A stretch of DNA of 64,000 nucleotides. Source: a virus. Made by a program: the position numbers and the translations under genes. Of this stretch, positions 1,260 through 63,920 are shown in pieces. The DNA lies in IMG/VR virus record IMGVR_UViG_3300000117_000009, positions 43,301-107,300 of that record. One strand, 5' to 3'. The notes under the pieces were generated by a model. The model was not told the origin of the DNA and did no database searches. It saw only the letters and a list, made by a program, of their open reading frames with translations. The first letter of the stretch is position 1. Every line of letters starts with the position of its first letter.

Positions 1260-3443
1260 TTACTTTCCTGCGACAACATAATTGTATGCTCTAGATAAAT
1301 TCTTTTTTATTATATCACTCTTTGGGTGATGATTTTCTAAATAAGGCAAGCCGACTTTTATTAAATCAAACTCTTGCTCATCTTGATCTTCATCCCAGTC
1401 TTCCTCGTTCTCGCTATCCCAAGAATCTTCTATTAGATATTGAAAAATATTTACTTCTTTTTCTAATGTAACGCCTAAAACATCAAATATTTCGCGACTA
1501 AAGTTTACATTGTATACTAAACTTTTTATCGCCAATTTTGCGTAAAAACTAGACCGGCTATTATCTTCATAAGAGTTCAGGCCAAAATTAGCTAACTTAA
1601 GAACTGGTTTGATTAGTCGACAAAGCTCAATAAGTTCATCTTTACTAACAGTTCTATTATTAAAAAATTGAATTGATGAAATTATAATATTCTGAATTTC
1701 TTTCTTATCTTTCTGAAGTATGTCTTCATCGCCCAAAGAGCTTTTGATTTTCTCATGCATAATTTCACTAACAGGTGCATATACATTGTTTTTTATTTGT
1801 ATGTTTTCGTAGCCAAACTTATCAATCATTCTGTCACAAATATCTTTATCCAAAAACTTAGAGCCTGCTAGGTATAAGATTGCATTGCTGGTACCTGTCG
1901 AGATTTTTGGAACTTTAGTGTTATCTATAATGTCTAGCATTATTGATTTTGGCAAAGATGAGCTTTTTAAAAAATATGATATATTATTGTCTAAAGCAGA
2001 ATAAGTGTCAGCAAATTTTGATCCTCTCAATATCTCAGGCTTAATATTCTTTTCATAAAAACTTTCTATATATTCTTCACTGACTGTTTTGTTTTTATTA
2101 GATAACAACAAAGAAAAAATGGTACTCGAAAAGAAAGGTTTGTTTTCTAGATTGTTAAAGTTTTTGCATATAAACAAAGCTACATCTTTATTTTTAGTGC
2201 CAACAGCAGTATCTCTTACAAAACGAAGTAATTTATTGTTGTCCTTTATTTGATTTACTATAGACTTAAATGACTTTAGACTTAAGTTTTTAAAATCATA
2301 GCTATATGCTTCACTACCATATTCTGGTTGCCAATTAACTAAATCATTATCTACTAATCCTTTTAGTATTTCGTTAAATTTAGTTTTATGTTTACCTGTT
2401 TTATTCTTAAAGACATTTACGAAAGTCCCAATAGGTTTTATTGTATTACCTGAAAAGTCAAACGATACAGCCTGCTCAGGCTCGTTCCCATGAATAGTTG
2501 ACGTACCCGCGTCAGCAATACCTTGAATACCTACAGCTTTTAACAATATTGAATAATACTGTCCTCTACTTGTTTTATTTATTTCTGCGATAGCAGAAGA
2601 TATATTTCCTGCCGCTTCTTTTAAAATAACAAAAAACGAATATTGTTTGCTAACGTTTTTCGTGTGACGACCAAATCTTTTAAAACTCAATTTCATGTAT
2701 TCATACATTGCATCAGCAATTTCAAACTTATAAATATTAACTAAACTTTGTTTTTCATCAATTTTTTCTTCATCAACTTTACCGACTAAATGACTATATT
2801 TTTTAAAGATTGAGGTGAAATAATAATTGTCATATGAGGCATTGCTTTTAAGACTTTTAATGTCTTTTTCTAAGTCTTTATAGTCTTGCAAAACAGCATC
2901 TTCAGATTCTCTATGCGTAATTAAACCTGTTGAAAGTCGTATGCATTCTGCTATGTCATCAATTACAGCCTGCTTGCTTGTGTATTTGCCTGAAATTAAT
3001 TTTTGTTCTTCATTGTCTTTTGTAACATTGGCTGTTTTTGACTTGTCAATTCTGTATAAATGAAAAAAACTAGCATTAGTTGCAAAACTAGCGCTTGTTG
3101 GTGATCCAGAATTAACAAGATTTTCTAAGTTTGTCTGGTCTAAAGGGTAACCGTATATTCCATGAGGTGTATGGTATTTTACTTTTGGACTTACTTCAAA
3201 CTTTGGTATTTCAATATCACCAAACTTCTCTACGAATCTAATATATGTCGATGAATCTGCCGAAAGTATTAGCTCTTCTAAGACTCCTTCTAACGAAAGA
3301 CTTGTTTTATCTATTGTTTCAATCTTTGTCAATTCTCTTTGCTGATCAGCTGCTGATCCTTTGCGCGAGAGTCTTTCTGGCGAAGACATAATTTCTCTGC
3401 CTAGAGACTCTTTAATGTATTTTTTAAGTAGTCTAATTTTCAT
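1260..3443 (-). CDS. putative virion cargo protein with ADP-ribosyltransferase-like domain (family B)
   Basis: N-terminal tag LLKKYIKESL. Motifs SPKVKYHTPHGIYGYPL and GIADAGTSTIHGNEPEQAV are shared with 43191..44966. Confidence 0.5.
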   Translation of the reverse strand: MKIRLLKKYIKESLGREIMSSPERLSRKGSAADQQRELTKIETIDKTSLSLEGVLEELILSADSSTYIRFVEKFGDIEIPKFEVSPKVKYHTPHGIYGYPLDQTNLENLVNSGSPTSASFATNASFFHLYRIDKSKTANVTKDNEEQKLISGKYTSKQAVIDDIAECIRLSTGLITHRESEDAVLQDYKDLEKDIKSLKSNASYDNYYFTSIFKKYSHLVGKVDEEKIDEKQSLVNIYKFEIADAMYEYMKLSFKRFGRHTKNVSKQYSFFVILKEAAGNISSAIAEINKTSRGQYYSILLKAVGIQGIADAGTSTIHGNEPEQAVSFDFSGNTIKPIGTFVNVFKNKTGKHKTKFNEILKGLVDNDLVNWQPEYGSEAYSYDFKNLSLKSFKSIVNQIKDNNKLLRFVRDTAVGTKNKDVALFICKNFNNLENKPFFSSTIFSLLLSNKNKTVSEEYIESFYEKNIKPEILRGSKFADTYSALDNNISYFLKSSSLPKSIMLDIIDNTKVPKISTGTSNAILYLAGSKFLDKDICDRMIDKFGYENIQIKNNVYAPVSEIMHEKIKSSLGDEDILQKDKKEIQNIIISSIQFFNNRTVSKDELIELCRLIKPVLKLANFGLNSYEDNSRSSFYAKLAIKSLVYNVNFSREIFDVLGVTLEKEVNIFQYLIEDSWDSENEEDWDEDQDEQEFDLIKVGLPYLENHHPKSDIIKKNLSRAYNYVVAGK

Positions 3444-3489
3444 TATAAACCTTGTTTGTTTTAATAAATATTTTAATCACATCTAGATT

Positions 3490-6255
3490 TTAAGAAAGCA
3501 TTAAAGAAATGTATTTTTTAATTAGCGATTCATTTGATTCTTGCGGAGATTGAGGGTTTTGTTTTTGTTGAAGTAATTGTCTAGTATCACTAATTAATTT
3601 AAGCATAGATCCTTTACTGAACATTTTTTCTATATAATCTATTACAATTTCAATACCTTCTTCGGGTAAATATAAATTGGCGTCAGGTGCAAGTGTTACT
3701 GCATAATTGACGCTTTGATGTATTCCCTTAACAATTTTAAGAACTTGCATCTGACTCATCCCACTAAAAAACAATGATAGCTGACTAGAATTATTTGCAA
3801 CCTGTTCAAATAATTCGTTGTCACCTTCTGTATAATGTATTCTACCTAGATCTAAACTATTCATGTGAGATTCTGGTATTGTTTTTAGCAGAGCAATAGT
3901 CTCAAGATATTGTTCTACACCTTTCGTAGATCTTAACAAAAGCATTAAAAGATCATTAAAATGTTTTTTGTTGTTTGGCTTAATATCAATATAGCTAAAA
4001 CAAGCTTTACATAAAGAGATGAGAGACTGGAATGGTATCTTTATGTCATAACTAATCCGTCTTAAATACATATGGAGATTGCTAATATCTGGAGGAATAT
4101 CACCTGAAATTATTCCTGAAACCAATGCTTCAGCGTACTCTTTATTTTTTGTATCAATTTTTCTATTGTTTTTTAGTATTAATCGAGTTTCTGCAGGTGT
4201 CTGAGATTGTTTGAGTTCATCAATTAAAGGACTCCAGTTGTTTGCGACTTCAAACCTTTGATTAACAAACTGATGATATTTTTGGTTTGTAATTTGACTT
4301 TTAATGTTTTCATCGTTAATGTTTAATAAATTTTGTTCAACATTCTTTCTAGCTTTTGCGCCTAATCTATCGATGTCTTCAAAAATTATATCAATTATTT
4401 TATTTAAAAGATCAATTCTAACACTACTTATTGTTTGCGGCTGAAATAAGGAAAAAACACCGCGAGACATATTATCAATAGAACCAGCAATTTGTGCTGA
4501 AGAAATCGTATCAAGCTCTTTAAACAGAAACTGCTGAATTTCAGGTAATTCTGTAAAGTATTCTCTTTCCCAAGGAAGCATGCAAATAGTTGTTTTATAG
4601 TCTCTGTTTTTTGTTGGAAAGTAAAAAGAAAGCATTTTTACTAAAACATTGAGTATATCTTGGCCAGTAAGATTATCTAAGCGACTTCGATACCTTGCTA
4701 ATTGAGAAATTTGAGTTAATCCTACATTCATCATTAAGCGGTTATTGTCAAGCCTGTTTAGCTTATCTAGAGACTTTCTAGAAAATAACATATCATTTAC
4801 AGATGAGCTGCCGCTATATTGTATGTTACCAAAAACCAGCATGCCATAACTGACTTTGTCTGCGTTTTCTATGTAAATATCAACAAACTTTTCAAAGTCT
4901 TCTTTTGTTACACTTTGTTTGTTTATTGGAGAAGTTAGTATATCCAAAAATTTTGGAAAATAATAATTGACGTCATTGTCTGCAAAATAGTTTATTTTTT
5001 TGCAAAGTTCTGTTATTAAGTCTAAACATTCTAAGTGAATATTTTCTATATTACTCTTGTCAACCCTTAAAGCAAACATTGGATTGCCAGATGCACCAAC
5101 AGCTTTATTTATTTTGTTTTTTGTATTTGAAAACAAAACGTGGTTGATAAACATATTTTCTATTTGTAAGTTATCATTAACAACTAGATCATAGACCTTC
5201 TGTACAGTTTCGTATGTTAAATCAGCAGAATCAGCAACTTTATTGATTTCATTACACCAATAAAGTGTAGGTAAAAGTCCTTCTACTTTTTGAAGTTGAT
5301 CTTGCTTGAAGTCTTCTTCGTCAACATCGTTTTCTTGTGCAATATCGTTTAATGTTTCAAAGTCTATGTCTAATGCTAACTTTTGGTCTGGAAAAAAGCT
5401 TGCAATATTTGAATGCCATTCTACATCTTTGCCTACGACTCTTCCTAGTTCTACGACTTTTGCTTTTCTCTGCGGATTGTAAACAACACAAACCGGTCCA
5501 TCATGGTCACCTCTAAATATGATACCGTCTATAACAGAAGTTAAATATTTGTGTGTATAATTCCCCATGACATATCTAGTAAAATCAAAAGCAGAACCAG
5601 AAGTTAGTTGTTTATTGCTAGGATCATCGACTAAATAACTAGTCCCAGATATTCGTTGTGTCAATGAAGTGCAATGTTGTTTTAAGTCTTCTTTTGTTTT
5701 TGCAAACAATTCGTCTTTTACAAGAGAAGAAAACTTTTCATCAAACAACTTTTCTATCTGGTCTTCTATTTTCCATTTATCACCGTGAATTTGTTTAGCC
5801 AGATCTTCAAAAAATATAATATAGTTGCTGATGTCAACTTCAAATTTAAAACATATATCCCCATACAAATGAACAATAGAAGGGTTAAAGTCATAACATG
5901 TATATAATCCTGGGCCGTACATATCTCCGTGACCAGGTGTAAACCCAGTTCCCACTGTATATGGGTCTGATAGTAGTTCTGTAATTCCTTGAAGCTCTAT
6001 GTCACTTTTACTTTGCGTGGTTGTACCACTCCTGGCTTTGTCGTAAGTAACTCTATTGATAATGTTTCTAGCACGATCTTTGACTTTTCTTGGTTTACTA
6101 GGCTTAAAGGGCTTTTCTGTATCTTTTACATAAGATGAATAATCTTTAAACTTTTTTGAACCTGTTAAGTGATAAACTGAAAGTTTGTTTCCTTTTAGTT
6201 CTATTCCTTTATTTTCTTTAATGAGAAAATTTTCTTTTAAACTATACTTCGCCAT
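3490..6255 (-). CDS. putative virion cargo protein with PARP-like ADP-ribosyltransferase domain (family A)
   Basis: Motifs YHLT, GDMYGPGLYTCY...YG and DGIIF...GPVCVVY. Paralog of 45475 and 48234. Likely start is MAKYSLKE at 6255, after AAGG. Confidence 0.6.
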   Translation of the reverse strand: MAKYSLKENFLIKENKGIELKGNKLSVYHLTGSKKFKDYSSYVKDTEKPFKPSKPRKVKDRARNIINRVTYDKARSGTTTQSKSDIELQGITELLSDPYTVGTGFTPGHGDMYGPGLYTCYDFNPSIVHLYGDICFKFEVDISNYIIFFEDLAKQIHGDKWKIEDQIEKLFDEKFSSLVKDELFAKTKEDLKQHCTSLTQRISGTSYLVDDPSNKQLTSGSAFDFTRYVMGNYTHKYLTSVIDGIIFRGDHDGPVCVVYNPQRKAKVVELGRVVGKDVEWHSNIASFFPDQKLALDIDFETLNDIAQENDVDEEDFKQDQLQKVEGLLPTLYWCNEINKVADSADLTYETVQKVYDLVVNDNLQIENMFINHVLFSNTKNKINKAVGASGNPMFALRVDKSNIENIHLECLDLITELCKKINYFADNDVNYYFPKFLDILTSPINKQSVTKEDFEKFVDIYIENADKVSYGMLVFGNIQYSGSSSVNDMLFSRKSLDKLNRLDNNRLMMNVGLTQISQLARYRSRLDNLTGQDILNVLVKMLSFYFPTKNRDYKTTICMLPWEREYFTELPEIQQFLFKELDTISSAQIAGSIDNMSRGVFSLFQPQTISSVRIDLLNKIIDIIFEDIDRLGAKARKNVEQNLLNINDENIKSQITNQKYHQFVNQRFEVANNWSPLIDELKQSQTPAETRLILKNNRKIDTKNKEYAEALVSGIISGDIPPDISNLHMYLRRISYDIKIPFQSLISLCKACFSYIDIKPNNKKHFNDLLMLLLRSTKGVEQYLETIALLKTIPESHMNSLDLGRIHYTEGDNELFEQVANNSSQLSLFFSGMSQMQVLKIVKGIHQSVNYAVTLAPDANLYLPEEGIEIVIDYIEKMFSKGSMLKLISDTRQLLQQKQNPQSPQESNESLIKKYISLMLS

Positions 6256-6276
6256 TATAAACCTTGTTGTATCTTT

Positions 6277-6342
6277 TATGTGTAAATATAAATATAATGT
6301 TGATATAATAAATAAAAACAAGAAAGGTATATAATTTGTCTA
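6277..6342 (+). repeat. 66-bp direct repeat, copy 1 (duplicated promoter, RBS and first 7 nt of dnaE)
   Basis: Matches 7312..7377 at 64 of 66 positions. Confidence 0.95.
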
Positions 6343-6383: not shown

Positions 6384-7289
6384 TTACACTATTCCTAATG
6401 TAATTGTTTTATTTTTGCTTAAAATCTTTTTTGTCAAGATATTACAAATATGTTTGTTGATTTGCTTTATTAGTGTTACAAGACTTTCAATATTAATAAA
6501 AGTCTCTTCTTTTAAGTAGTATGGATATTCATCTTTGGTTATAAAGTCTGCTAAATTAAAATTTTGTAAATCAATTTTTAATTTTTCAATATTCTGGTTT
6601 GATTTTTCAATATCGAAGACCTTGGTTTTTTCATCAAACTCTATAATAAAAAGATATAAAAACGCAAAAAGAGAAGGCTCGCTATCTTCAAAATCAAAAT
6701 AGTGTGGGTAATCTTTTGAAGAAAGAGCTTGCATTATAAATTCATGAAATAAATAAATATCGTTTTGTTCAAATTTAGTCTGTATGTTAAATTGTATTTC
6801 TTCTTCTAAATATACATGATATAGGTCGTGTATTGACCATATTGTATTACCAACGTGATCTTTGTTTATTTTTGATGATACATCTCCGAATTCTGGTACA
6901 ATAACAATATCTACTTCTGAAGATAATACAATCTGATTGTATTTTTTACTGTCAATAAGATCTACATCATTTAACGCGTTAGCAACTTTAGCTCTATTTT
7001 CTTTGTTGTTTTGTAAAACTATCTTTAAATTGTTGTTTTTATTTTTGTTTATACTTTTCATTATGTCTTTAAATAACGTGTTTTCTTTGTTACTTTTAGT
7101 TATAACATACGTAATAGGAAAGATAACGGGTCTTCTATCTCTCAGAGAATTAAAATCTACTCTTTTAGATTTGATATGTTTGCTAATTTTTTCACTAGGC
7201 AATCCTCTTTCTAAGATTGCTTTTTTAATAAAGTTTTGTTTCCACTCGATTAATAACTCTTTAAATTCTCTTCTACGCAACTTGCTCAT
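6384..7289 (-). CDS. hypothetical protein with HDxxH zincin-like motif, flanked by direct repeats
   Basis: WSIHDLYH motif, N-terminal LLIEWKQNFIKKAILE tag, ATG at 7289 after AAGGA. Confidence 0.6.
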   Translation of the reverse strand: MSKLRRREFKELLIEWKQNFIKKAILERGLPSEKISKHIKSKRVDFNSLRDRRPVIFPITYVITKSNKENTLFKDIMKSINKNKNNNLKIVLQNNKENRAKVANALNDVDLIDSKKYNQIVLSSEVDIVIVPEFGDVSSKINKDHVGNTIWSIHDLYHVYLEEEIQFNIQTKFEQNDIYLFHEFIMQALSSKDYPHYFDFEDSEPSLFAFLYLFIIEFDEKTKVFDIEKSNQNIEKLKIDLQNFNLADFITKDEYPYYLKEETFINIESLVTLIKQINKHICNILTKKILSKNKTITLGIV

Positions 7290-10958: not shown

Positions 10959-11270
10959 CTAGAATGACATCATTTCTATAGGTGTTACTCCAAGCTTTAA
11001 TAGCTTTTCTTTATACATCGATTTAAATTTTAATTTCATCTCATGTCTTAGTTTATTGTCGTTTATTTCGTCTGCTTTTTGCATATTCAACCTGTACATT
11101 GCTAGTAAAGTTTCTTTATCTGCAGTTTCACTATTATTAGGTCCAGGCCCTAAAGCTTGAATAGGATCTGAACCCATGTGTCCATGACCACCTGACAGGT
11201 CGTCGCTATAGTGAGATTCTTTTATAGCACTTCTAATGATTGAGCGTAAACGTCTTTCTGTGATTTTCAT
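10959..11270 (-). CDS. small hypothetical protein with MKIT..LR.IIR..I.E leader
   Basis: Leader MKITERRLRSIIRSAIKE is nearly identical to that of 63564..63920. RBS AGGAG. Confidence 0.75.
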   Translation of the reverse strand: MKITERRLRSIIRSAIKESHYSDDLSGGHGHMGSDPIQALGPGPNNSETADKETLLAMYRLNMQKADEINDNKLRHEMKLKFKSMYKEKLLKLGVTPIEMMSF

Positions 11271-13715: not shown

Positions 13716-14169
13716 CAGGCGTATATTCTATATTACTGTCATGTTTTTTTAGATCAATTCTAACTTGCTCTAACGTATCTTCCCTGTCATCCCAAAACTT
13801 AACGTAAGTTATATTATCATTTGCACATATTTCATCTAATATTACATGAGACTTATAAATTGGTGCTCTTTCTTTTCTGTAAGCAGACTTAAAGTAACAT
13901 TGATCAAAATCGTTTAAAGACATATTGTTTTGATTTAAAAGCTCTTCTGTTGACATTATATATTCAGATTTATTTGTTCTTGCTGTGCAAAGTATTACTC
14001 TTGTTTGAGAATTACCTAGAGAGTTTTGAAGTTCAGCAACAATATTTTCTATCCAATCTTCTTTTTTATGATCGTATAACGTCATATCAAAGTCATAAAT
14101 ATGTAATGTATTTATTGGTTCTTTTTTTATAATATACTTTATGTAGTTTTCCAGTAGTAAATTAGACAT
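13705..14169 (-). CDS. HAD-superfamily phosphatase (PNKP / RNA-repair phosphatase-like)
   Basis: YDFDMTL, CTAR, K and WDDR motifs. Likely start is MSNLLLENYIK at 14169, after GAGG. Confidence 0.8.
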   Translation of the reverse strand: MSNLLLENYIKYIIKKEPINTLHIYDFDMTLYDHKKEDWIENIVAELQNSLGNSQTRVILCTARTNKSEYIMSTEELLNQNNMSLNDFDQCYFKSAYRKERAPIYKSHVILDEICANDNITYVKFWDDREDTLEQVRIDLKKHDSNIEYTPVKC

Positions 14170-14633: not shown

Positions 14634-17600
14634 ATGCAACATAGTTTATCAAAAATGCTTTTTGAAGATCAAGATCCTGCAAAAGATCTTATGGTTGATA
14701 TTACTAAAGCACGTGCCGTTTTAAAAGAAAATCGTCATATATTAAAAGAAAACTACGATTATTCAGATGAAGAAATTAATTGTCTAATTGAATCAGGAAG
14801 GCTTGATGAGATTGTGCCTCTTTTGGCTGCAATTCCTGGCGCGTTAGCTACTGCAGGTAGAGTAGCAGGTGCTGCTGCAAACACTGGTATTAAAATTGCA
14901 GCCAATGCAGCAAAATCAACAGCACAAGCTGCAGCTACTGGTGTTAGAATTGCTGCTCAAACTACAGTAAAAGCTGCTAAAGAAGTAGGAAAGCAGGCAG
15001 GCAAAACAATTATAAAAAAAGGTAAAAATATGGCGGTTGATGCAGCATCTAATTTAAAAGATAAAATCTCTTCTGAAGAAGAAGAAGAAGAATCAACTAG
15101 TGAGGCTATAGAAGAAGCGTTAAAAACTTTTAGTTTAAAAGGTGTAAATATTTTAAATGAAGAAAATATTTCTTCTTCTGCAAGTCAAGGTGACAAAGAA
15201 GGTGATCAAAAAGATGCTGAAGAAGGTGATCAAAAAGATGCTGAAGAAACAAAAAAGTCTGACGAAGAGAAAAAGTCTGACGAAGAGAAAAAGTCTGACG
15301 AAGAGAAAAAAGTTGGTGATACATTAGACATTAGCGATTTAATAGCAGAAAAATCCATTTCACATGCAAATATAATTAAAATAGCTAAAAGATCATTGGA
15401 AAATATTAAAAATCAACAAAACATTGTTAATATGAGAAAAGAATTTTCTCGTTATGATATTGAAAATCTAAGTGAAGAGGAAACAGAAAAACTTAAAGAA
15501 TATATTGAAAAGCTACAAGACGATCATCCAGAAGGAATGATAGATAGATCAAACTTTAAAAGCTTTTTAACTAAGCCACACCCTCAACCTGTTATTGGAA
15601 AAGCCATTATTAATCCTTTACAAATGAGATCAGGAGCAGATCAAAAAATAGCAGTTGATCCAGCAGATATTAAATTTTATCAAAAAAATAAAATTATACC
15701 TTTCATGATTAATTATCAAACGCAAGAGGGTCTGCAGACATTATCAGGACACTCACAAAAAAATGATTATGTTGTTGTTTTTATTGCACCAGCATTTGGT
15801 GCTTTATTAAATGAAAAAGATGTAGAAACATATAAAGCTTTTTTCCCAAACTATTCAGCTGAAGTTAATTTAGGTGAAGGACATGTAGTAATAGACTGTG
15901 ATGAAATTGCTTTTATGTATGTTGATCCAGTAAAAGAATTGCCAAAGCTTCAAACTTCTTTTATGTCTAAAGCACAAGAAATATTAAATAGAACTGAGAC
16001 TAGGAAAAGTGATGGTAAACCTAGTGAACAAGCCGTTAGTCAAGAAACACAAGATTCTTCTAGCGGAAAAACAAACGAAAGTATTTATAACAAGTTTATC
16101 TATCAAGGTGGAATATCACAGCTTTTAAATGAAAAAAATTCTTCGCTAGATGTTTTAAAATTTGTAAACGTAGCTAAGAACGAAAAGCCTCAGGATTTTG
16201 ATGAAGCAAGCTATCAATCTAGCTGGGAAAATTCAATGCTTGCCGAAAAATCAATTAATGTTATAAGAGACAGTTATTCTTCTTATTTACAAGTTCAAAA
16301 AGAAGAATACGAAGAAAAACAAGATAAAGACTCTCAAGAAAAAGCTGGTATGATTGGTAACTTTATACAAGCAGGCGGGAATATAACAAAAGGTTCAACA
16401 CAAGCATTTGGTTTATATGCTACAATTGGTAGCATTCCAGGTATTGGCGCTATAGGTGCAGGTGCTGCAGGTACAGCAGCACTGACTATGCTGCCTTATG
16501 TTATAGGTCTTTCTGTAGCAATGCCTGCCTTAACTAAAGGTGCATCTCTAGGTGCAAAAGCTTACACTTCATTTACATCAAGAAAAAGAGAAAAAGAGTT
16601 AAACAAATCAGAGCTAGATGATCAAATAAAAATAGTTCTTAAGCAACAAACGCAAGACGTTGGTTTCAACAGTATAGGGGACGAAGTTCAGAAGCTTGAT
16701 ACAGTTTTTAGTAGTATAAAACAAAAATTTACTAATGAAAAATATTACGCTGAAGATGGAAAAGGCGTTGACTCTGACTCTGAAGACTATCATAAGATCT
16801 CGACACGAGACTTTATGAAAGTATGTAACAAAAAACAATTATCATTTACTGAAATTAGCGACTTTTCAGGGTCAGAAAAAAAACAATCGGTGTTTACTGA
16901 CTTTTTAATTGGTTGTAACAAAGCTTTAAATGTAATTGATATTGAAATTGACGAAGTTGCAGGTATGGAAATTCAGACAAAAACAGGTAAAGATAATTTA
17001 TTGCAACGCGAAATTGATTTTGATAACAAACCTATTTTGAAAGAAGTAGTTGAGACAATGATGAAAGAGGTTGAAAAATTTCCAGCAGTTACTTTTAGAG
17101 ATCGAATGATGAAATCAGGTATTATTGCTAGACTTAAGTTAGGCGAGCTAGAGGCAGCTCAAAAAATGATAGAAGATCTTCAATCGTCTAGGTGGTCTGC
17201 AAGGTCCGAAAAGGTTTTAAAACCAAAAGAAAACGAAACAGAAGAAGAAGTATTGTCAGATATGTCTGAATTTTTAAATATACCAAAAGAAAATATTGCA
17301 AACGAATTTGAGTCTTCAAGAATAATGCCTATTACAAGCAGTATGATTGAAGCAATAATTGCTCTTCAAAGTGTTGTTTATAAAAATATGCGTTTAAGCC
17401 TTTCCAAACCCTTAGACGAACAAAATTTTAAAATTGATCAAGATATAAAGATTGTTGACTCCATTGAAAAAGAAAAGCAAAATACAGTTATGTGGAATGG
17501 TGCTGAAAAAATTGCATATATGATTTTACCTAAAAATGATTTTGAAATTCCTAAAGGTTTGAATCTCAAAGGTGATAACGCTCAATCGTTTCAAGATTTA

Positions 17601-45474: not shown

Positions 45475-48237
45475 TTAAAAGCTATATACTTCTTTGAGTG
45501 AATTACCAAATATCTTTCTATGACTCAAATCTAACTCAGGTTCACTAATTTCTTGATTAACATTTCTCTGTGTCATTAAAGCATCAAGCTCTTTAAATAG
45601 CTTTACTGCTTTTTTTGTTTTACCCGAGTCGGTCTTTGTTCTTATTTCTTCCATAAGATAGCTATACCATGCATTGTCATTAGGGTCAATAACTTCTGAT
45701 AGGTCTATTTTACTAATCTCTGTATATTGATAATAATTACCACGTAAAAGCTCAACTTTGTTGCCTTTAAGCGACTCAACTAATCTGTAAACTGTTTTTT
45801 TGAAAAAACCATTGCTGCTATATTGGATAAACGCATCTAAAAGTTTTTTGCTTTGATAAAGGTTTTCAAATAAGCTTGAAGATAATCGAATTGAATTTAG
45901 TGGACTTCTGGAGTTTTTTTGAAGAACATCTATTATAATATCAACGCTGACACTTTGACTTATATGTTTATATGCTAAAAGTGAAACACTACTACTTCCA
46001 GAAGAGTTTGACAAGTGTCTTTGATCTTGCTCACTTAAAACTATGTCTTTAAGATCAATTAAATAGACAATTGTTTCCAATATATTATTTTTTAAATTAG
46101 AGAATTTAGGATTAGTTTTAATATTTTCTATGATAAGGCTGATAAGTCTTTCATGCCATTCTTTTGACTGTGACTTTAAATAATTATTGTTTAGTCCGTC
46201 GTTACACATGTAGTAATAATCAAAAAAGGTGCCTTGAGGTTTTGTTTTCTTTTCGAGATTAGCTATTGCCTTGTTAAATGCGTTTTCGACTTCACGGAAC
46301 ACTTCTGACTTGACAGAATTAAATTTTTCTACAGTCTCAGGATTATTTATACCAAATTTTTCAAAATATCCAGTGAGATAAGAGATCAGTAATTTTTTAT
46401 CACTGTCAGTTTCAGGAAGAGCAATTAATTCTTCTACAGCTTTTTCAATAATAGTATCAGACAAAGGATGCTCTACATTTTTAAAAGCATAAAAAAGTTC
46501 TCGTAAAACATTCGCATTGTGTTTCTTAATCATTACGTCAACAATATTACAAAATTTATCTATTACTTCTTTTGACTTATAATAATCTGCTTGTTTAAAT
46601 TCATTAGGTTTGTGTAGACCTACTGGTATCGACATTATTTTCAATGGGTGATCTGAAATTCGGTCAGTTAGATTTGTTATTTTATCTTTAGTATCTTGAT
46701 TGCCGTTTTCGTATAAATCAATTATCTCAATCCAGCCGGCTGTTTTTAATTTAAGATCAGTGCCGTATATATTGTCTAGTTCTTGAATTAATTGAACAAA
46801 CTCTTCAGACGCATTTGTATTTCTAATGTATACACTTGCTGATTCTAAAAAGCTAGCAGCTGCTCTACTATTATACTCAAACTTATCTATTTCTTTAAAG
46901 TATATTTTAAAAGCACCATAGACACCATCAACTAAAAAGTCATTAGAGAAATTAATACTTGACATTAAGTTTAAAATGTAACCTGTATTCCTTAACATTT
47001 CAGAAACTTCATCAATATTGTTTTTGCTCTTATAAAATTGATAAGCATCTTCTAAGATTTTTCCGTATTCCTGGAGAACTTTTTGGCTCAAACTATTAAA
47101 TTCTTTGAAGCTTTGTGTAAATTTACCTGTTCCAATTTCCCTATAAAATACGCCAAGTTCATCTTCGACATTATTACTTTTAACTTCTTCATAAAATTCT
47201 ACTAGCTTTTGAATTGTTTCTTCAGTATATCGAATGTTTTCAAGAGAAGCTAGAACATACCTGTATTTGGCATCATAAAATACTCTTTCATCTTCTTTCA
47301 TCTGTTCTTTTTCTTCGAGACTAGTGTTTTCATCTGCGACAGCATTCATTGTCTGAAAATCTAATTTGTTTCTTGCACGTCCGCCTACAAAGTCATTTAG
47401 ACTGTCATACCAGTCAACTTCTGCCTTTGCTGATCTTTTACTAAGTCTTCCTAACCCTACTAATCTAGCATCGTATTTCGGGTAAAAAGAAACGCAAACA
47501 GGACCGTCTCCTCTTCCAAGAAAAATAATGCCATCATATACTGCAGTTATAAGCTCTTTACCAAAAGCTTTCATCAAGGCATAACTAATTTGAGATGAAT
47601 GCGGTCTCATTTCGTTTATTGTTTGGTTTAGCTCAAATTTGTCAAATCCAACTCTATTAATAATTTTTAAAAACTTTTCTAAGCTTTCTTCATCTCTTGA
47701 TTTTCTTTTGTAAAGTTTTAATAGCTGGTCTTTGATTCTCCAGTCTTTACCGTGAACTTGCTTAGCTAAGTCTTCAAACGTTATTACAAAGTTACTTATA
47801 TCTATTTCAAAAGCAAGACATATATCTCCATAAGTTCTAGCAATACCTGGGTTGAATTTATAGCATGTATAGAGGCCTTTACCGTGGTGATCACCAAAGC
47901 CTGGGCTAAATCCACTAGTATCTGTATATGGATCATCTAACATGTCCATAATGACTTCTTCTTCTATGTCATATGAGTCTCTTGCAGAAACTCTATTGCT
48001 GTTTTTTAGATTTTTTAATATTCTTGATGCTCTAGAATCATCTGAACTTATTTCTTGCTTTGGATGTTTAATCAATGGATTTTTCATCTTGTCTTCTATA
48101 CTTGGATTATAATTAGCCCAATTTTGATGAGAAGTCAAGTGATAACATATTAATTTTCCATTTACGTAATTAACTTTTTGCGGATCCAAACTAGATATTT
48201 TTGATTCTGTTAATAGCCATCTTATACTGTTTTTCAT
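45475..48237 (-). CDS. putative virion cargo protein, PARP-like ART domain (family A)
   Basis: CYHLT, GDHHGKGLYTCY...YG and YDGIIF...GPVCVSFY. Tandem paralog of 48234..51071. Confidence 0.6.
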   Translation of the reverse strand: MKNSIRWLLTESKISSLDPQKVNYVNGKLICYHLTSHQNWANYNPSIEDKMKNPLIKHPKQEISSDDSRASRILKNLKNSNRVSARDSYDIEEEVIMDMLDDPYTDTSGFSPGFGDHHGKGLYTCYKFNPGIARTYGDICLAFEIDISNFVITFEDLAKQVHGKDWRIKDQLLKLYKRKSRDEESLEKFLKIINRVGFDKFELNQTINEMRPHSSQISYALMKAFGKELITAVYDGIIFLGRGDGPVCVSFYPKYDARLVGLGRLSKRSAKAEVDWYDSLNDFVGGRARNKLDFQTMNAVADENTSLEEKEQMKEDERVFYDAKYRYVLASLENIRYTEETIQKLVEFYEEVKSNNVEDELGVFYREIGTGKFTQSFKEFNSLSQKVLQEYGKILEDAYQFYKSKNNIDEVSEMLRNTGYILNLMSSINFSNDFLVDGVYGAFKIYFKEIDKFEYNSRAAASFLESASVYIRNTNASEEFVQLIQELDNIYGTDLKLKTAGWIEIIDLYENGNQDTKDKITNLTDRISDHPLKIMSIPVGLHKPNEFKQADYYKSKEVIDKFCNIVDVMIKKHNANVLRELFYAFKNVEHPLSDTIIEKAVEELIALPETDSDKKLLISYLTGYFEKFGINNPETVEKFNSVKSEVFREVENAFNKAIANLEKKTKPQGTFFDYYYMCNDGLNNNYLKSQSKEWHERLISLIIENIKTNPKFSNLKNNILETIVYLIDLKDIVLSEQDQRHLSNSSGSSSVSLLAYKHISQSVSVDIIIDVLQKNSRSPLNSIRLSSSLFENLYQSKKLLDAFIQYSSNGFFKKTVYRLVESLKGNKVELLRGNYYQYTEISKIDLSEVIDPNDNAWYSYLMEEIRTKTDSGKTKKAVKLFKELDALMTQRNVNQEISEPELDLSHRKIFGNSLKEVYSF

Positions 48238-51071
48238 TGTATTTTATTCCTTGTAATAGAATTATAAACTTCTTTTAAAGAATTACCAAATATCTTTCTA
48301 TGACTCAAGTCCAATTGTGGGTCTAAATCAGCGCTTGCCTGATCAATTGTAGATGTTTGCATTTTTGATTTTTTATCGTTAAGGCTTTTTTCAAGAGCAA
48401 CAACGGCTCGAGCAACGCCTCTTTTAGGCGACTTTTTAGCTCTACTAATGAAATATTCAAACCAAGCAATGTCGTCCATATTGACAGCTTCTGATATTTT
48501 GATCTGGTCGTCGACTCGATCTAGGTAAGGCAAAGTATTATAGATGTAAGCAAATACACCACTCTTTAGCATGCCACTATTACCCCACGTATGTGGAGGA
48601 TTAGGATTGCCAGCAAGCTCTGCATTGAGATTTAAGACGATCATCTTCATTAATCCTGGTCTAGCTACGTCACAAAAAAGATCTACAATTTTTCTGTGTT
48701 TATATAATAACCTATAGACTCCTGGACTATATTCAAAGCCTTTAAATGATAATCCAGCACCCATACCCCCTTTTTCAAGATCAGGGCCAAGTAGTTTAAT
48801 AAAGACATCTGGATCAATGTGTTTGTAGTTAGCAATATTATTTTTGCTGTCATAGTCTGACTTGCCAAACTTTCGTGTGAAGGCAAACTGTTCCTCTTTA
48901 GTTAGAGCAATATCATGACTCATTATAATTGCTAAAAGAAATGATGTCTCTGCTCTTCCTAATACTCTAAAGTTCATAGCAATAACGTTTTCCATGACTG
49001 CGCTGAATAGTTTTTTAAACCAATCTTTTGACTGTTTATTAAGATAAGAGATATGAGGCATTTCAAATTTAAATTCATCAATTTTATTTTTGAGCTGTCT
49101 ATTTGTTACTTGACCAAGTTTTAGTTTTTCAATAAATATCTCAATATTGATGCCTGCCTGTTCTATATCTTGAGATTCAAGCTTTTCAATTTGCAATGCT
49201 ACAGGATGAGAGCTTCCTAGCTTTCGTCTAATATATTCTATTGTGTTGACAAAGAAGGTTGCGTCTGACTCCTTTTTTATTTTATCCATGTTTTTTAGAA
49301 AAGATCTAGCTATAAATTCGTCTACTTTGTTTGATAAATAGTCAATGTCAGGCAGATTATTAAATAAAAGTCTAATGAAAGCAATCTCGTAATCAAAATC
49401 AGATCTTGTCTCAGTAAGCCTATCGATTATTTTTTCTAATAATTCGTTTGCTTCTTTAAAGTTTTGAGAGGCTACATCTTCCCAATAAACTTGTGTTCTT
49501 CCAGACTGAGCTAGATTGCTAGCTATTAAGGACACTACCTTGTTTTTATTGTTTTCGTCTGCAGTTGAATAAAAATTTAATATTTTTTCTGCATTACTCT
49601 CCATTGTTACAATATTAGGGCCAAACTCATAAAGCTTTTTATCTACAAGACTCTGTATTTCAGGACTTACAGTATTTATCTTTAAATACTCATCAATGTT
49701 ATAAGTAAAACTTTTTATTGACCATGAATCTTTTTTAAAAGTTTTTTCGTTAAAGCAATAAGCTATTGCTGCTTTTAAGAAAAAGTCTGAAGTCTTTTGA
49801 TTATTTTTATTATATTCTCCAAGGACTGCATTGTAATAGCTTGAGCCTATAGGTTTATTTTTGCTGGTGTAATATTTAATAACTTCATCATTTAATTTAT
49901 TAAATTTTTCATTTTTAATTGTTTTAGAGTCAAAAGGATATCTAGAATTTTTAAAAGCTTTTAGGAAAAACTCGAGCTTGTTATTGTCACCTGAAAATTT
50001 TATGTCATCATAAAGCTTAAACAAAGTGTCAATTGCGTAGCTTTGTTTTTCTTGAGTTTCAGCAAATTCGTTGTTATTAAAAAAGCTTGTAATCTCTACA
50101 TAATCAGCATCAAAAGGTGGACGATCTTCTGATTTCATAGCAGACTTTTCAACAGAATCTGTTGTTTCTTCTGCGACAGAGTTCATTGTCTGGAAATCTA
50201 ATTTGTTTCTTGCGCGACCGCCAAGAAAACCATCTAAGCTATCATACCAATCAACAACTTCTGGTCTATCTTCGTTTAGTCTTCCTAACCCTACTAATCT
50301 AGCATCGTATTTCGGGTAAAAAGAACAACAAACAGGACCGTCTCCTCTTCCAAATAAAATTACACCGTCGTAAACAGAAGTTATGTGTATCTTGCTAAAA
50401 CTTCGCATTAATATCAAGCTTATACTTGCTGTTCTATCAGAAGAACTGTGAATGGATTTAGGCATTTTTAATTCATCGTCAGATATTTCTGATAGGATTT
50501 CTTTATACTTTTGTATACTAGAAGGACTCCGATCTTCTAATTGATAGATCTTTAATAATTGATCTTTTATTGTCCAACTATCACCATGAACTTGTTTAGC
50601 TAAATCTTCAAATGTTATTATGAAATTGCTTATATCTATTTCAAATACTAAACATATATTACCATAAGTGCTAGCAATCCTTGGATTGAACTTGTAACAA
50701 GTGTAAAGGCCTTTTCCATGATAATCTCCGTAACCTGCAGAGAACCCACTAGTATCTGTATATGGATCATCAATCATATCCATAATGACTTCTTCTTCTA
50801 CGTCATAAGAATCTCTTACAGAAACTCTATTGCTATCTTTTAGATTTTTTAATATCCTTACAGCTCTAGAATCATCTTTACTTCGTTCTTGCTTTGGATG
50901 CTTAATTAATGGATTATCAAGCTTATCAGCTATTTGTGGATTGTAAGAAGCCCATTTTTGATGTGAAGTTAAATGATAACATATTAATTTTCCATCTACA
51001 AAATTAATTTTATTTGTATCTAGGTTAGATATCTTTGATTCTGTTAATAACCATCTTATACTGTTTTTCAT
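48234..51071 (-). CDS. putative virion cargo protein, PARP-like ART domain (family A)
   Basis: CYHLT, GDYHGKGLYTCY...YG and YDGVIL...GPVCCSFY. Shares N- and C-termini with 45475..48237. Confidence 0.6.
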   Translation of the reverse strand: MKNSIRWLLTESKISNLDTNKINFVDGKLICYHLTSHQKWASYNPQIADKLDNPLIKHPKQERSKDDSRAVRILKNLKDSNRVSVRDSYDVEEEVIMDMIDDPYTDTSGFSAGYGDYHGKGLYTCYKFNPRIASTYGNICLVFEIDISNFIITFEDLAKQVHGDSWTIKDQLLKIYQLEDRSPSSIQKYKEILSEISDDELKMPKSIHSSSDRTASISLILMRSFSKIHITSVYDGVILFGRGDGPVCCSFYPKYDARLVGLGRLNEDRPEVVDWYDSLDGFLGGRARNKLDFQTMNSVAEETTDSVEKSAMKSEDRPPFDADYVEITSFFNNNEFAETQEKQSYAIDTLFKLYDDIKFSGDNNKLEFFLKAFKNSRYPFDSKTIKNEKFNKLNDEVIKYYTSKNKPIGSSYYNAVLGEYNKNNQKTSDFFLKAAIAYCFNEKTFKKDSWSIKSFTYNIDEYLKINTVSPEIQSLVDKKLYEFGPNIVTMESNAEKILNFYSTADENNKNKVVSLIASNLAQSGRTQVYWEDVASQNFKEANELLEKIIDRLTETRSDFDYEIAFIRLLFNNLPDIDYLSNKVDEFIARSFLKNMDKIKKESDATFFVNTIEYIRRKLGSSHPVALQIEKLESQDIEQAGINIEIFIEKLKLGQVTNRQLKNKIDEFKFEMPHISYLNKQSKDWFKKLFSAVMENVIAMNFRVLGRAETSFLLAIIMSHDIALTKEEQFAFTRKFGKSDYDSKNNIANYKHIDPDVFIKLLGPDLEKGGMGAGLSFKGFEYSPGVYRLLYKHRKIVDLFCDVARPGLMKMIVLNLNAELAGNPNPPHTWGNSGMLKSGVFAYIYNTLPYLDRVDDQIKISEAVNMDDIAWFEYFISRAKKSPKRGVARAVVALEKSLNDKKSKMQTSTIDQASADLDPQLDLSHRKIFGNSLKEVYNSITRNKIQ

Positions 51072-55647: not shown

Positions 55648-56121
55648 ATGAACGAAAGAAAATTAATAAGAGAATTTTTAGATTTTGCTGCTTGTGAAGA
55701 ACACCAAGACGACATGCAAGACTATAGTTTAAATAGCATGAAATTAGATACAAGTCACTCAGATAACGATTTAGATCCTAACGGAGATGGAAACATTACG
55801 CCTGAAGATCTTTACTCTCATTTTGACTTAAATAATAACGGACAAGTTACAACGCAAGAATATGTTGATCATATCAAATTTCACTGCGCACACCCTGAGT
55901 CTTTAGAACATTACAGTAATGCAAGAGAACAGTCAATACACAGCGTACCTTGTAAAGATTCATATGATAATTGCTCACAACATTTAATGGGTTGTCCTGA
56001 CGATATTGATAAATTTCTTAAGCCTATGATGGACTGTACTGGTTCAACGTGTAGAGAATCTTCTACTAAAGCTTTACTTGACGTATTGCAATCACTTATT
56101 AATTGTGGTGTTTTTGGTTAA
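55648..56121 (+). CDS. EF-hand protein with Cys-rich C-terminus
   Basis: Loops DPNGDGNITPED and DLNNNGQVTTQE. Leader KLIREFL. Confidence 0.75.
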   Translation: MNERKLIREFLDFAACEEHQDDMQDYSLNSMKLDTSHSDNDLDPNGDGNITPEDLYSHFDLNNNGQVTTQEYVDHIKFHCAHPESLEHYSNAREQSIHSVPCKDSYDNCSQHLMGCPDDIDKFLKPMMDCTGSTCRESSTKALLDVLQSLINCGVFG

Positions 56122-63515: not shown

Positions 63516-63563
63516 GGTTTTTAGATATATATATACTATATACATTTAAAGCGTGGAGTTAGC

Positions 63564-63920
63564 ATGAAAATTACCGAAAGTAAACTAAGAAATATTATCA
63601 GAAGCGTTATCGCAGAAAACATAGGCGACCTCGACATAACAGCAGACCCTGGCTTGCCAGAATTTCAAGATACACATGACCCAAGTCATAAAGATTTTGA
63701 TCATGCAAGCTCTGCAGAAGAACATCCATTTCTTGACATTTTTTCGCAAATGTGTTCATCTTGGATGACCTCTGACGCTATGTTAAGAAAACAAATTGAG
63801 AATGCTGCACAGTCTCTGTTAGATGAGTCTGAAAAGGATGTTGCAACATTTAGAAGGTGTCTTAAAAACACATGTGCCCCAGAGTCATTAGACGCTATCT
63901 TACCTAGAGACTTTTATTGA
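63564..63920 (+). CDS. small protein with MKIT..LR.IIR..I.E leader
   Basis: MKITESKLRNIIRSVIAE, with a GGAG RBS. Confidence 0.75.
   Translation: MKITESKLRNIIRSVIAENIGDLDITADPGLPEFQDTHDPSHKDFDHASSAEEHPFLDIFSQMCSSWMTSDAMLRKQIENAAQSLLDESEKDVATFRRCLKNTCAPESLDAILPRDFY

What the first reader, a model, noticed from the sequence alone, without database searches (positions are those of the whole stretch)
1260..63920. Portable L/I-x-E tags on ~25 unrelated proteins: a putative capsid-cargo addressing and processing system
Seen: unrelated ORFs share short amphipathic tags. One class is LLKKYIKESL (3443), LLEKYIKEFLKE (44966), LLEEFIREALLDE (42818), LEEFIKEALLDE (43125), LLENYIK (14169), LRSIIRSAIKE (11270), LRNIIRSVIAE (63564), ILVESWKNFIKE (37307), LLIEWKQNFIKKAILE (7289) and C-terminal NESLIKKYISL (3490). 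A second class is SLSKMLFE and SLARLLFE (both ends of 14634), SIRWLLTE and NSLKEVY (both ends of 45475 and 48234), and SLKNEY, SLKEAY..IISE and SLKSIF (start, middle and end of 37929). Composition often changes sharply after the final E. Core enzymes (DnaE, ligase, PurA/B, UvsE) lack such tags. Known: T4 gp21 prohead protease cuts after L/I-x-E, and T4 internal proteins use a short cleaved capsid-targeting leader. Inference: a modular tag loads many different enzymes into the head for injection, and it can sit at either terminus or internally.
Basis: partly seen in the sequence, partly recalled or inferred. Interest (0 to 1): 0.8.

Follow-up and report, generated by a model that had tools for sequence, protein, structure and literature searches.

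The report
Shared capsid-loading leaders on phage proteins
About twenty mostly unrelated proteins of this uncultured marine giant phage start with short helical leaders that end in the cutting motif of a T4-type head protease. This looks like an enlarged version of phage T4's signal for loading proteins into the capsid and then clipping the signal off, but nobody has measured packaging or cutting.

Summary
The window is part of a 107-kb fragment (about 42% complete) of an AT-rich marine myovirus. All quoted strings are present.

**N-terminal tags are real.**
- 23 of 109 proteins carry hydrophobic-x-x-hydrophobic-[L/I]-x-E in their first 25 residues. Shuffled controls give 5.1±2.1 (z 8.5).
- The same excess appears in complete relatives G001 (z 7.9) and G004 (z 10) and in T4 (z 4.1, hitting IPII, IPIII, gp24, Alt, gp68).
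- Two phages without a T4-type protease show none, nor do variants with E changed to D or K.
- Tagged bodies are almost all unrelated by BLAST.
- Homologous bodies carry different leaders or none.

**Protease.** The fragment lacks the head genes. Its syntenic complete relative encodes a gp21-type protease, portal and capsid protein.

**Internal tag.** The tag inside the 1165-aa protein sits exactly at a module boundary before an RNA-ligase-like enzyme. In a stand-alone homologue the same tag is N-terminal.

**C-terminal motifs.** They are conserved in homologues but lack the Glu and are not statistically enriched. Their role is open.

**Verdict.** This is a probable expanded T4-type capsid-targeting system. 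Packaging and cleavage are inferred. The scan found the same thing before on other phage DNA.

The parts
3408..3443 (-). Leader MKIRLLKKYIKE of the 727-aa ORFan (1260-3443), class A (LLxx[YF]I[KR]E)
   Evidence: The N-terminal ~130 aa are paralogous to the 591-aa protein.
6214..6255 (-). Leader MAKYSLKENFLIKE of the 921-aa ART-like protein (3490-6255), class D (SLK type)
   Evidence: The same leader is on homologues P0164-P0170.
3493..3528 (-). C-terminal motif SLIKKYISLMLS of the same protein. It is leader-like but has no final Glu.
   Evidence: It is conserved as ..ES.L[KR].YIK..LS-stop in homologues of 34-40% identity.
7209..7289 (-). Leader MSKLRRREFKELLIEWKQNFIKKAILE of the 301-aa ORFan, class C (LLxEWxxF[IL])
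   Evidence: Only these ~21 residues match an otherwise unrelated 102-aa protein of G001.
11217..11270 (-). Leader MKITERRLRSIIRSAIKE of the 103-aa protein, class B (MKIT..LR.II)
   Evidence: The G001 orthologue keeps it. About 25 G004 genes carry this class.
14119..14169 (-). Leader MSNLLLENYIKYIIKKE of the 154-aa HAD phosphatase (PF10307). It lies ahead of the DxDxT motif.
   Evidence: The orthologue in G001 is also tagged.
14634..14666 (+). Leader MQHSLSKMLFE of the 1081-aa ORFan, class D
17823..17846 (+). C-terminal SLARLLFE of the same protein, similar to its own leader
   Evidence: score 5.7. No homologue was found to test conservation.
17923..17964 (+). Leader-like start MKLDSKLMLKLLKE (182 aa)
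   Evidence: [IL]LKEEY is conserved in G001.
24228..24266 (+). Leader-like start MYLQDIMTNYLNE (113 aa)
   Evidence: YLNE|T is conserved in G001.
25086..25130 (+). Leader-like start MSHEVISMFEEILSE (212 aa)
   Evidence: EIL[SN]E is conserved in G001.
37307..37354 (+). Leader MKTNILVESWKNFIKE of the 212-aa cytidylyltransferase-like protein, class C
   Evidence: The L004 orthologue keeps it.
41385..41426 (-). Leader MKCSLKNEYKNIFE of the 1165-aa two-module protein (37929-41426), class D
   Evidence: It is the only part of the N-terminal 700 aa shared with the L004 homologue.
39261..39314 (-). Internal leader SLKEAYKHLFKKKIISE (aa 705-722), at the exact start of the conserved RNA-ligase-like module
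   Evidence: Homology to L004 begins here. Distant homologues start M-GGLAGHM. P0133 has this motif as its N-terminal leader, and P0150 has a different leader. pLDDT is below 50 in the model.
37929..39260 (-). RNA-ligase-like nucleotidyltransferase module (aa 723-1165), a putative cargo enzyme
   Evidence: Invariant KxDG. Model pLDDT 87. Top fold hits are T4 Rnl1, T4 Rnl2, Trl1 and archaeal RNA ligases, probability 0.96-1.0.
37932..37961 (-). C-terminal SLKSIFNLIF of that module
   Evidence: It is conserved in homologues of >=54% identity. It lies outside the confident fold.
42400..42465 (-). Leader-like start MNKLLLE...HLIE (214 aa)
   Evidence: It is conserved in G001 and L004.
42765..42818 (-). 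Leader MNDLILLEEFIREALLDE of the 118-aa basic DUF5824 protein, class A
   Evidence: It is nearly invariant in 120 homologues. DUF5824 bodies in other phages carry class B or other leaders.
43072..43125 (-). Leader MQDLLILEEFIKEALLDE of the 98-aa Lys-rich protein, class A
   Evidence: Codons differ at 7 of 13 identical residues compared with the neighbouring gene.
44925..44966 (-). Leader MILLEKYIKEFLKE of the 591-aa ORFan. It has the same register as T4 MKTYQEFIAE (L4, Y7, I8, E10).
   Evidence: top score 19.4. The L004 orthologue keeps L-x-E|AAS.
45137..45184 (-). Leader MNELLKDLILEIILSE of the 73-aa protein
   Evidence: I[LI][SE]E|GNKPPKW is conserved in G001.
48205..48237 (-). Leader MKNSIRWLLTE of the 920-aa ART-like protein (45475-48237)
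   Evidence: It is conserved on P0153-P0161.
45478..45501 (-). C-terminal SLKEVYSF of the 920-aa protein
   Evidence: It is conserved in L004.
51039..51071 (-). Leader MKNSIRWLLTE of the 945-aa paralogue (48234-51071). SLKEVY lies near its C-terminus at 48264-48281.
55648..55674 (+). Leader MNERKLIRE of the 157-aa EF-hand protein
   Evidence: It is identical in G001 and L004 orthologues.
63564..63617 (+). Leader MKITESKLRNIIRSVIAE of the 118-aa protein, class B
   Evidence: score 17.5

Best explanation
The N-terminal tags are capsid-targeting and processing leaders of the T4 type.

**Proposed mechanism**
1. A 9-27-residue amphipathic helix docks the newly made protein onto the scaffolding core of the assembling prohead. 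The helix has hydrophobic residues at -6 and -3 relative to the final Glu.
2. The lineage's gp21-type (Peptidase S77) prohead protease then cuts after [L/I]-x-E. This frees the mature protein inside the capsid.
3. The mature protein is expelled with the DNA at infection.

**Leader classes.** At least four classes are used (LLxx[YF]I[KR]E, MKIT..LR.II..E, LLxEWxxF[IL]xE, and an SLK type).

**Internal leader.** In the 1165-aa protein an internal leader precedes an RNA-ligase-like module. If it is cut, that protein is a two-part polyprotein.

**Shown here**
- The motif, its strict N-terminal position and its statistical excess.
- Its specificity for [LI]-x-E.
- Its conservation under protein-level selection.
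- Swapping of leaders among homologous bodies.
- The protease, portal and capsid genes in a syntenic complete relative.

**Inferred:** docking, cleavage, packaging and injection.
For: **Pattern identity with T4.** The pattern matches the T4 CTS MKTYQEFIAE. In T4, residues 4 and 7 target and residues 8 and 10 direct processing.

**Enrichment**

| Genome | S77 protease | z |
|---|---|---|
| G000 (this contig) | head module missing | 8.5 |
| G001 | yes | 7.9 |
| G004 (GC 0.42) | yes | 10.0 |
| T4 | yes | 4.1 |
| Staphylococcus phage K | no | 1.8 |
| SPO1 | no | 1.0 |

- In T4 the pattern recovers IPII, IPIII, gp24, Alt and gp68.
- Variants with E changed to D or K, or [LI] changed to [SAG], show no enrichment in the three marine genomes.

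**Protease and head module**
- G001 shares 84 of 109 proteins in collinear order.
- It has portal, S77 protease and capsid protein.
- The conserved GEL.HP and SSRG motifs are present, and [LI]-x-E ends at residue 9 as in T4 gp21.
- The proteins around the G001 protease have [LI]-x-E densities of 4.0-4.7 per 100 aa, against 1.42 genome-wide. This fits a scaffold that is chopped up. The capsid protein has four such sites in its first 59 residues.

**Portability**
- Tagged bodies fall into 21 BLAST clusters out of 23.
- DUF5824 bodies carry different leaders in phages of GC 0.26-0.57.
- The ART-like domain carries three leader classes.
- The RNA-ligase-like module occurs with no leader, with two different leaders, or behind a large extra module.

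**Selection.** Identical leader residues use different codons in about half of cases, so selection acts on the peptide.

**Cross-genome check.** A matrix trained on other genomes finds this genome's N-termini.
Against: - There are no proteomic or experimental data.
- This contig has no S77 protease. Its head module lies off the fragment.
- About 5 of the 23 hits are expected by chance.
- Some leaders lose the first Glu in orthologues (YIKE becomes YIKN in L004, though a second L-x-E is kept).
- The HAD leader's only exact cut motif is LLE at residue 7.
- C-terminal motifs lack a Glu and are not enriched.
- The cultured relative HTVC008M has the protease but only a weak excess (z 2.1). An S77 protease alone therefore does not predict expansion.
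- Only two protease-negative control genomes were tested.
Confidence: 0.7

Rival explanations
1. The leaders dock the proteins onto some other common partner in the infected cell. The partner might be the phage ClpP (as an N-terminal degron), the phage GroEL, the membrane or the nucleoid. They would have nothing to do with the capsid.
For: A ClpP gene (PF00574, 83 bits) lies at contig 32516-33118, directly upstream of two tagged genes. A GroEL homologue is in the window. Amphipathic N-terminal helices serve many targeting roles.
Against: - The enrichment is specific for [LI]-x-E and disappears with D or K at that position.
- The same regex recovers the known T4 capsid-targeted proteins.
- Head-module proteins of G001 are the richest in the motif.
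- No ClpX-type recognition motif is evident.
Confidence: 0.15
2. The shared termini are mainly recombination joints. Short conserved sequences at gene and module borders would let cassettes be swapped between phages, as proposed for the polymorphic ip loci of T-even phages. The peptides themselves would have little function. C-terminal copies would be relics of the next cassette's leader.
For: - Tagged large genes are absent from the syntenic relative G001 and sit in variable regions.
- The homology break in w37929 falls exactly at the motif.
- The C-terminal motifs look like the first 10-12 residues of leaders without the cut site.
- w3490's C-terminal LIKKYIS lies 46 nt before the next gene's LLKKYIKE.
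Against: - Codons at identical leader residues differ in about half of cases, so conservation is at the peptide level.
- The leader of the DUF5824 protein is nearly invariant in 120 homologues.
- The final Glu is specifically required.
- This reading can coexist with the targeting function rather than replace it.
Confidence: 0.1
3. Chance and composition. In a 31% G+C genome, K/I/L/E/N-rich N-termini produce look-alike amphipathic strings.
For: The generic [LI]-x-E motif is common, at 1.4 per 100 aa.
Against: - Shuffled N-termini give 5.1+-2.1 against 23 observed.
- Staphylococcus phage K, at 30% G+C, shows no excess.
- G004, at 42% G+C, shows the strongest excess.
- DUF5824 homologues in phages of up to 57% G+C have such leaders.
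Confidence: 0.03

Closest known systems
Phage T4 capsid targeting sequence (CTS) on internal proteins IPI-III and Alt, removed by prohead protease gp21 (PMC9026906, PMC8442874, PMC3012670)
   Same: - A short N-terminal leader sits on unrelated, non-essential, fast-evolving proteins.
- The residue pattern is the same: hydrophobic at -6 and -3, [LI] at -2, Glu at the end.
- The protease family in the lineage is gp21-type.
- Small, very basic cargo proteins are present (the 98- and 118-aa proteins), as are ADP-ribosyltransferase-like cargo candidates, compared with Alt.
   Different: - About 20 carriers lie on 107 kb (roughly one gene in five), against about six in T4.
- There are at least four leader classes instead of one.
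- Carriers reach 1165 aa and include enzyme folds not known as T4 cargo (RNA-ligase-like, HAD phosphatase, nucleotidyltransferase-like).
- One leader is internal, at a module junction.
- Nothing has been shown experimentally.
Polymorphic ip loci of T-even phages (CTS-like leaders on variable basic proteins; cited in PMC9026906)
   Same: A conserved leader sits on otherwise unrelated proteins in variable genome regions. Homologous bodies carry swapped leaders.
   Different: Here the scale is genome-wide, in a distant marine jumbo lineage, with several leader classes.
Propeptides of phiKZ, 201phi2-1 and SPN3US head and ejection proteins, cut by a gp21-related protease (PMC5694885, PMC10052503)
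   Same: Giant phages that pack many proteins. Identical N-termini occur on diverged paralogues. There are multiple cut sites per propeptide.
   Different: Their motif is S/A/G-x-E, which is not enriched here. Most of their propeptides are over 100 residues long.
Polyvalent proteins of phages and conjugative elements (ART-PolyVal, PF18760, as the Atlas clusters name that domain)
   Same: Large multi-module proteins with an ART-like head, thought to enter the host with the DNA.
   Different: The ART assignment here rests on weak fold matches only. Pfam does not match.

Membership tests
T4-type capsid targeting / prohead-protease propeptide system | Short (about 10-20 aa) N-terminal leader shared by otherwise unrelated proteins | tested here: met
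   23 of 109 proteins carry it. Their bodies fall into 21 BLAST clusters. Leaders are 9-27 aa long.
T4-type capsid targeting / prohead-protease propeptide system | Leader has hydrophobic residues at the T4 positions 4 and 7 and ends in [L/I]-x-E, the gp21 cut motif | tested here: met
   The pattern is enriched at z 8.5. D, K and [SAG] variants are not enriched. T4's own CTS proteins are recovered.
T4-type capsid targeting / prohead-protease propeptide system | The genome encodes a gp21-type (Peptidase S77) prohead protease with a T4-like portal and capsid protein | tested here: inconclusive
   It is absent from this 42%-complete contig, which starts at the tail sheath. It is present in the syntenic complete relative G001 and in G003 and G004. 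The His and Ser motifs are conserved.
T4-type capsid targeting / prohead-protease propeptide system | The leader is necessary and sufficient to place a protein in the prohead | not testable with these tools
   This needs a reporter-packaging experiment.
T4-type capsid targeting / prohead-protease propeptide system | The leader is removed after the Glu in mature virions | not testable with these tools
   This needs virion mass spectrometry or N-terminal sequencing.
phiKZ-type propeptides | Cleavage motif S/A/G-x-E at the propeptide end | tested here: not met
   Phi..Phi[SAG].E is not enriched at N-termini (z -0.5 in G000, -0.4 in G001, -0.8 in G004).
ADP-ribosyltransferase fold (cargo body of w3490, w45475 and w48234) | ART fold with NAD-binding His and Tyr motifs | tested here: inconclusive
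   - The model has pLDDT 74.6.
- Foldseek gave no match at E <= 0.001. Its weak top rows include the anti-CRISPR 6kyf, a PE-like toxin, NatT and MbcT.
- In VIA-align, most of the top 30 rows are PARP or toxin ART domains, but Z is only 4.0-4.5.
- Y32-H33 and G119...Y123 (GKGLY in the consensus) are invariant.
- Pfam gives nothing, and the Atlas score of 0.88 is only a lead.
ATP-dependent RNA ligase / nucleotidyltransferase (cargo module of w37929) | KxDG motif I lysine and the ligase adenylyltransferase fold | tested here: met
   K56, D58 and G59 are invariant in 25 sequences. The model has pLDDT 87. Top hits are T4 Rnl1, T4 Rnl2, Trl1 and archaeal RNA ligases at probability 0.96-1.0, although TM is low (~0.2). 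Activity was not tested.

The most novel reading that the evidence does not exclude
The leaders form a multi-class address code, and sequence alone defines a large, swappable injected arsenal in abundant marine giant phages.
- Different classes could set copy number, location in the head, or order of exit.
- Internal leaders would make polyproteins that the head protease cuts into separate enzymes.
- The cargo would include an RNA-repair kit (RNA-ligase-like module, HAD/PNKP-type phosphatase, nucleotidyltransferase) and ART-like enzymes.
- These would arrive with the DNA and could pre-empt tRNA-cutting and other early host defences.
- The C-terminal leader-like helices would be a second, uncleaved docking signal.
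Probability: 0.25. Interest if true: 0.8.

Novelty: new variant of a known kind. Interest (0 to 1): 0.62.

Why it matters
If the leaders work as in T4, the proteins that a phage carries into the cell could be read directly from uncultured genomes. That set is the least predictable and most defence-relevant part of a virion. It would apply to a lineage whose close homologues are frequent in marine metagenome data.

It would show that T4's one-leader system has been expanded to several leader classes and to large enzymes and polyproteins. It would also give ready-made tags for loading foreign proteins into capsids.

I found no paper describing these leader strings or capsid-targeting leaders in marine phages. 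The scan has flagged the same phenomenon in several other uncultured phage genomes.

Tried and rejected
- **Pfam and PHROGs on the tagged bodies.** Most are ORFans.
- **PDB sequence search.** Nothing useful came from the ART-like protein or the ligase module.
- **Promoter analysis.** An ATATTTATA box lies upstream of several tagged genes and some structural genes, and a GTGTAAAT...TATAAT box upstream of replication genes. Tagged genes were not significantly enriched for the first box (6/36 against 26/268 in G001). In divergent intergenic regions the two boxes partly overlap as reverse complements. Expression timing was therefore left undecided.
- **C-terminal enrichment of [LI]-x-E.** None found.
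- **SLK..[FY]..[LI]F motif.** It occurs 4 times where my back-of-envelope residue-frequency estimate gives about 0.2. The regex is post hoc and three copies are in one protein.
- **Homologues of the 1081-aa protein,** sought to test its two-ended motif. None in IMG/VR.
- **Close cultured relatives.** None for the 591-aa protein. DnaE has only distant matches. DUF5824 occurs in pelagiphage HTVC008M and Methylophilales phage Melnitz. HTVC008M has the S77 protease but only a weak leader excess (z 2.1).
- **DNA ligase 'FIAE' start.** Rejected as chance, because the relative has FILK.
- **Composition jump after the Glu.** Small.
Full report
**What the window is.** The window is bases 43301-107300 of a single 107.3-kb IMG/VR contig. 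CheckV rates it 42% complete. G+C is about 31%, and no tRNA genes were found.

The contig starts with tail sheath, tube and baseplate genes. It continues with replication and nucleotide-metabolism genes: DnaE, GroEL, a sigma factor, PurA/B, a UV endonuclease and ligase. The head module is missing. No close cultured relative exists in the phage collection.

I ran a test that uses no predefined motif. It takes the best ungapped BLOSUM62 10-mer score between the first 30 residues of all non-paralogous protein pairs.

| Score threshold | N-termini | Internal windows | Shuffled N-termini | C-termini |
|---|---|---|---|---|
| >=28 | 34 pairs | 11.5±3.3 | 12.4±4.4 | 13 |
| >=31 | 13 pairs | 3.0±1.7 | – | 2 |

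C-terminal windows are therefore at background.

The top pairs share one pattern: hydrophobic-x-x-hydrophobic-[L/I]-x-Glu. This pattern lies within the first 25 residues of 23 of 109 proteins. Shuffled N-termini give 5.1±2.1, and the internal rate predicts 4.3.

A position matrix trained only on two other genomes, then scanned over every position of this genome, places N-terminal sites at 12 of its 15 best hits.

**Controls.** The same count in five other genomes:

| Genome | S77 protease | Proteins with pattern | z |
|---|---|---|---|
| G001 (complete relative) | yes | 36/304 | 7.9 |
| G004 (complete, 284 kb, 42% G+C) | yes | 38/357 | 10.0 |
| T4 | yes | 20/265 | 4.1 |
| Staphylococcus phage K (30% G+C) | no | 13/239 | 1.8 |
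| SPO1 | no | 7/196 | 1.0 |

- Replacing the Glu by Asp or Lys, or [LI] by [SAG] (the phiKZ motif), removes the excess in the three marine genomes.
- In T4 the pattern picks out IPII, IPIII, gp24, Alt and gp68, which are known protease substrates.
- Composition and chance are thus excluded for the N-terminal class.
- About five of the 23 hits should still be false. GuaB, thioredoxin and DNA ligase are likely ones.

**Are the carriers unrelated?** Mostly. Without their first 30 residues, the 23 carriers fall into 21 BLAST clusters. In G004, 38 carriers fall into 35 clusters.

There are exceptions. The 727- and 591-aa proteins share residues ~40-130. The three ~930-aa proteins share their first ~330 residues.

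**Conservation and portability.**
- Orthologues in L004 (54% identity) and G001 keep the leaders.
- The leader of the 118-aa DUF5824 protein is almost invariant in 120 metagenomic homologues.
- The same DUF5824 body carries quite different leaders in phages of 26-57% G+C. These include the MKIT..LR.II class, which in this window sits on two non-DUF5824 proteins.
- The leader of the 301-aa protein is the only part that matches a 102-aa protein elsewhere in G001.
- The ART-like domain family occurs with three different leader classes.
- Where leader residues are identical between genes, the codons differ in about half of cases. Selection therefore acts on the peptide, not on a DNA repeat.

**The protease.** This contig has no Peptidase S77 gene.
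- G001 is complete at 239.5 kb with terminal repeats. It shares 84 of 109 proteins in collinear order.
- It encodes a T4-type portal, an S77 protease and a capsid protein.
- G003 and G004 also have the protease.
- The protease keeps the GEL.HP and SSRG motifs. Like T4 gp21, it has [LI]-x-E ending at residue 9.
- In G001 the proteins flanking the protease have 4.0-4.7 [LI]-x-E sites per 100 residues, against 1.42 genome-wide. They rank among the top eight of all G001 proteins of 90 residues or more.
- The capsid protein has four such sites in its first 59 residues.
- This matches T4, where scaffold proteins are cut into small pieces and a propeptide is removed from the capsid protein.

**Comparison with T4.** The T4 capsid targeting sequence is MKTYQEFIAE. 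Residues 4 and 7 matter for targeting, and residues 8 and 10 for processing. The 591-aa protein starts MILLEKYIKE, with L4, Y7, I8 and E10 in the same register. The other leaders keep the same spacing at slightly different lengths.

**Internal and C-terminal motifs.** The 1165-aa protein is the clearest case.
- Its homology to the L004 homologue (68% over 463 residues) begins exactly at the internal SLKEAY...IISE motif and runs to the end.
- The ~700 residues before it are unrelated, apart from the first ~11.
- Distant homologues of the conserved module start M-GGLAGHM, immediately after the predicted cut.
- One homologue has the motif as its own N-terminal leader, and another has a different leader.
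- In the structure model the motif is disordered and the module is confident.

So an internal leader at a module boundary is real.

The C-terminal motifs are conserved in homologues:
- SLKSIF..IF on this module.
- SLKEVY on the ART-like proteins.
- ..LIKKYIS.. on w3490.

They lack a Glu, and C-termini show no statistical excess. Their role is open. They could be an uncleaved docking helix or a relic of the next cassette's leader. T4 Alt is processed at both ends, so a two-ended arrangement has precedent.

**What the cargo is.**
- *RNA-ligase-like module.* It has an invariant KxDG motif and folds like RNA ligases (T4 Rnl1, T4 Rnl2, Trl1). In other phages it is fused to a cytidylyltransferase-like domain that resembles the neighbouring tagged gene.
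- *HAD phosphatase.* The 154-aa carrier belongs to an RNA-repair family.
- *ART-like paralogues.* The three ~930-aa proteins have a head domain whose weak fold matches are almost all ADP-ribosyltransferases. This is a lead, not proof.
- *Small basic carriers.* Two are small and very basic, like T4 internal proteins.
- One copy of each window carrier listed in parts comes to about 8,400 residues by my addition (lengths), roughly 0.9 MDa, which would easily fit in a capsid.

**Rivals.**
- A non-capsid docking role (ClpP degron or chaperonin) is not excluded. It does not explain the Glu specificity or the T4 control.
- A pure recombination-joint reading is contradicted by the codon data. It may still explain the C-terminal relics and the variable location of the carriers.

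**Limits.**
- Gene starts were set by a simple rule. Errors there would dilute the signal, not create it.
- Only two protease-negative genomes were used.
- The cultured pelagiphage HTVC008M has the protease but only a weak excess.
- Timing of expression could not be settled.
- Packaging, cleavage and injection remain inferences.

**Novelty.** The T4 mechanism is textbook. The scale, the several leader classes, the large enzymatic cargo and the internal leader are not described in the papers I could search. The scan has reported the same phenomenon in other uncultured phage genomes, and my analysis reached the same reading independently on this DNA.

Noticed in passing
window 6256-6330 and 7290-7370 (minus strand): The regions upstream of the 921-aa and 301-aa tagged genes share a near-identical ~60-nt sequence (…AATTATATACCTTTCTTGTTTTTATTTATTATA…TATATTTATATTTACAC…). 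This looks like a duplicated promoter or regulatory region.
   Followed up: partly
window, upstream of 7371, 28715, 30580, 51163, 52141, 56174 and 57858: A GTGTAA(A/T)T box 45-77 nt before the start codon, often with TATAAT downstream, precedes replication and nucleotide-metabolism genes (DnaE, GroEL, sigma factor, UV endonuclease, GuaB, a RecA-like gene). It is a candidate early or middle promoter class. Among the 23 regex-tagged genes only GuaB, a likely chance hit, has it.
   Followed up: partly
window 37307-37945 (+) and 37929-39260 (-): The tagged cytidylyltransferase-like gene and the RNA-ligase-like module are convergent neighbours that overlap by 17 nt. In other phages both domains appear to be in one protein (P0143 named cytidyltransferase-like; P0151 with PF01467). 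This suggests a functional pair.
   Followed up: partly
contig 32516-33118 (outside the window; L003:2516-3118): A ClpP-family protease (PF00574) is conserved in G001 and G004, separate from the S77 head protease. It is directly followed by two leader-bearing ORFans.
   Followed up: partly
G004 (L082-L096), about 270-284 kb and 218-229 kb: There are two gene arrays. About 25 genes start M[KR]ITKRQLRRII[KR]EE, with the Glu at residue 14. About 9 genes start MxLLREYIRxLLxE. Almost all have unrelated bodies.
   Followed up: partly
contig 22261-23904 (L002:8261-9904) versus G001 76973-77200: A 547-aa tagged protein here corresponds to a 75-aa protein in G001 that shares only the leader and the Gly-rich stretch. 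The long form also has an SLKESFNFLF motif at residue 84.
   Followed up: no
G001 48286-51081 and 67387-68445 versus window 7371-10946 and contig 29410-31215: In G001 the best matches to DnaE and to the 601-aa gene at contig 29410-31215 are shorter ORFs with different N-termini. These genes may be split or interrupted there by an intein, intron or homing element.
   Followed up: no
T4 (L058) 18966-19130: T4 gp61.1 (54 aa) starts MKTFKEFIKE, very close to the CTS MKTYQEFIAE. It turned up in the positive-control scan.
   Followed up: no
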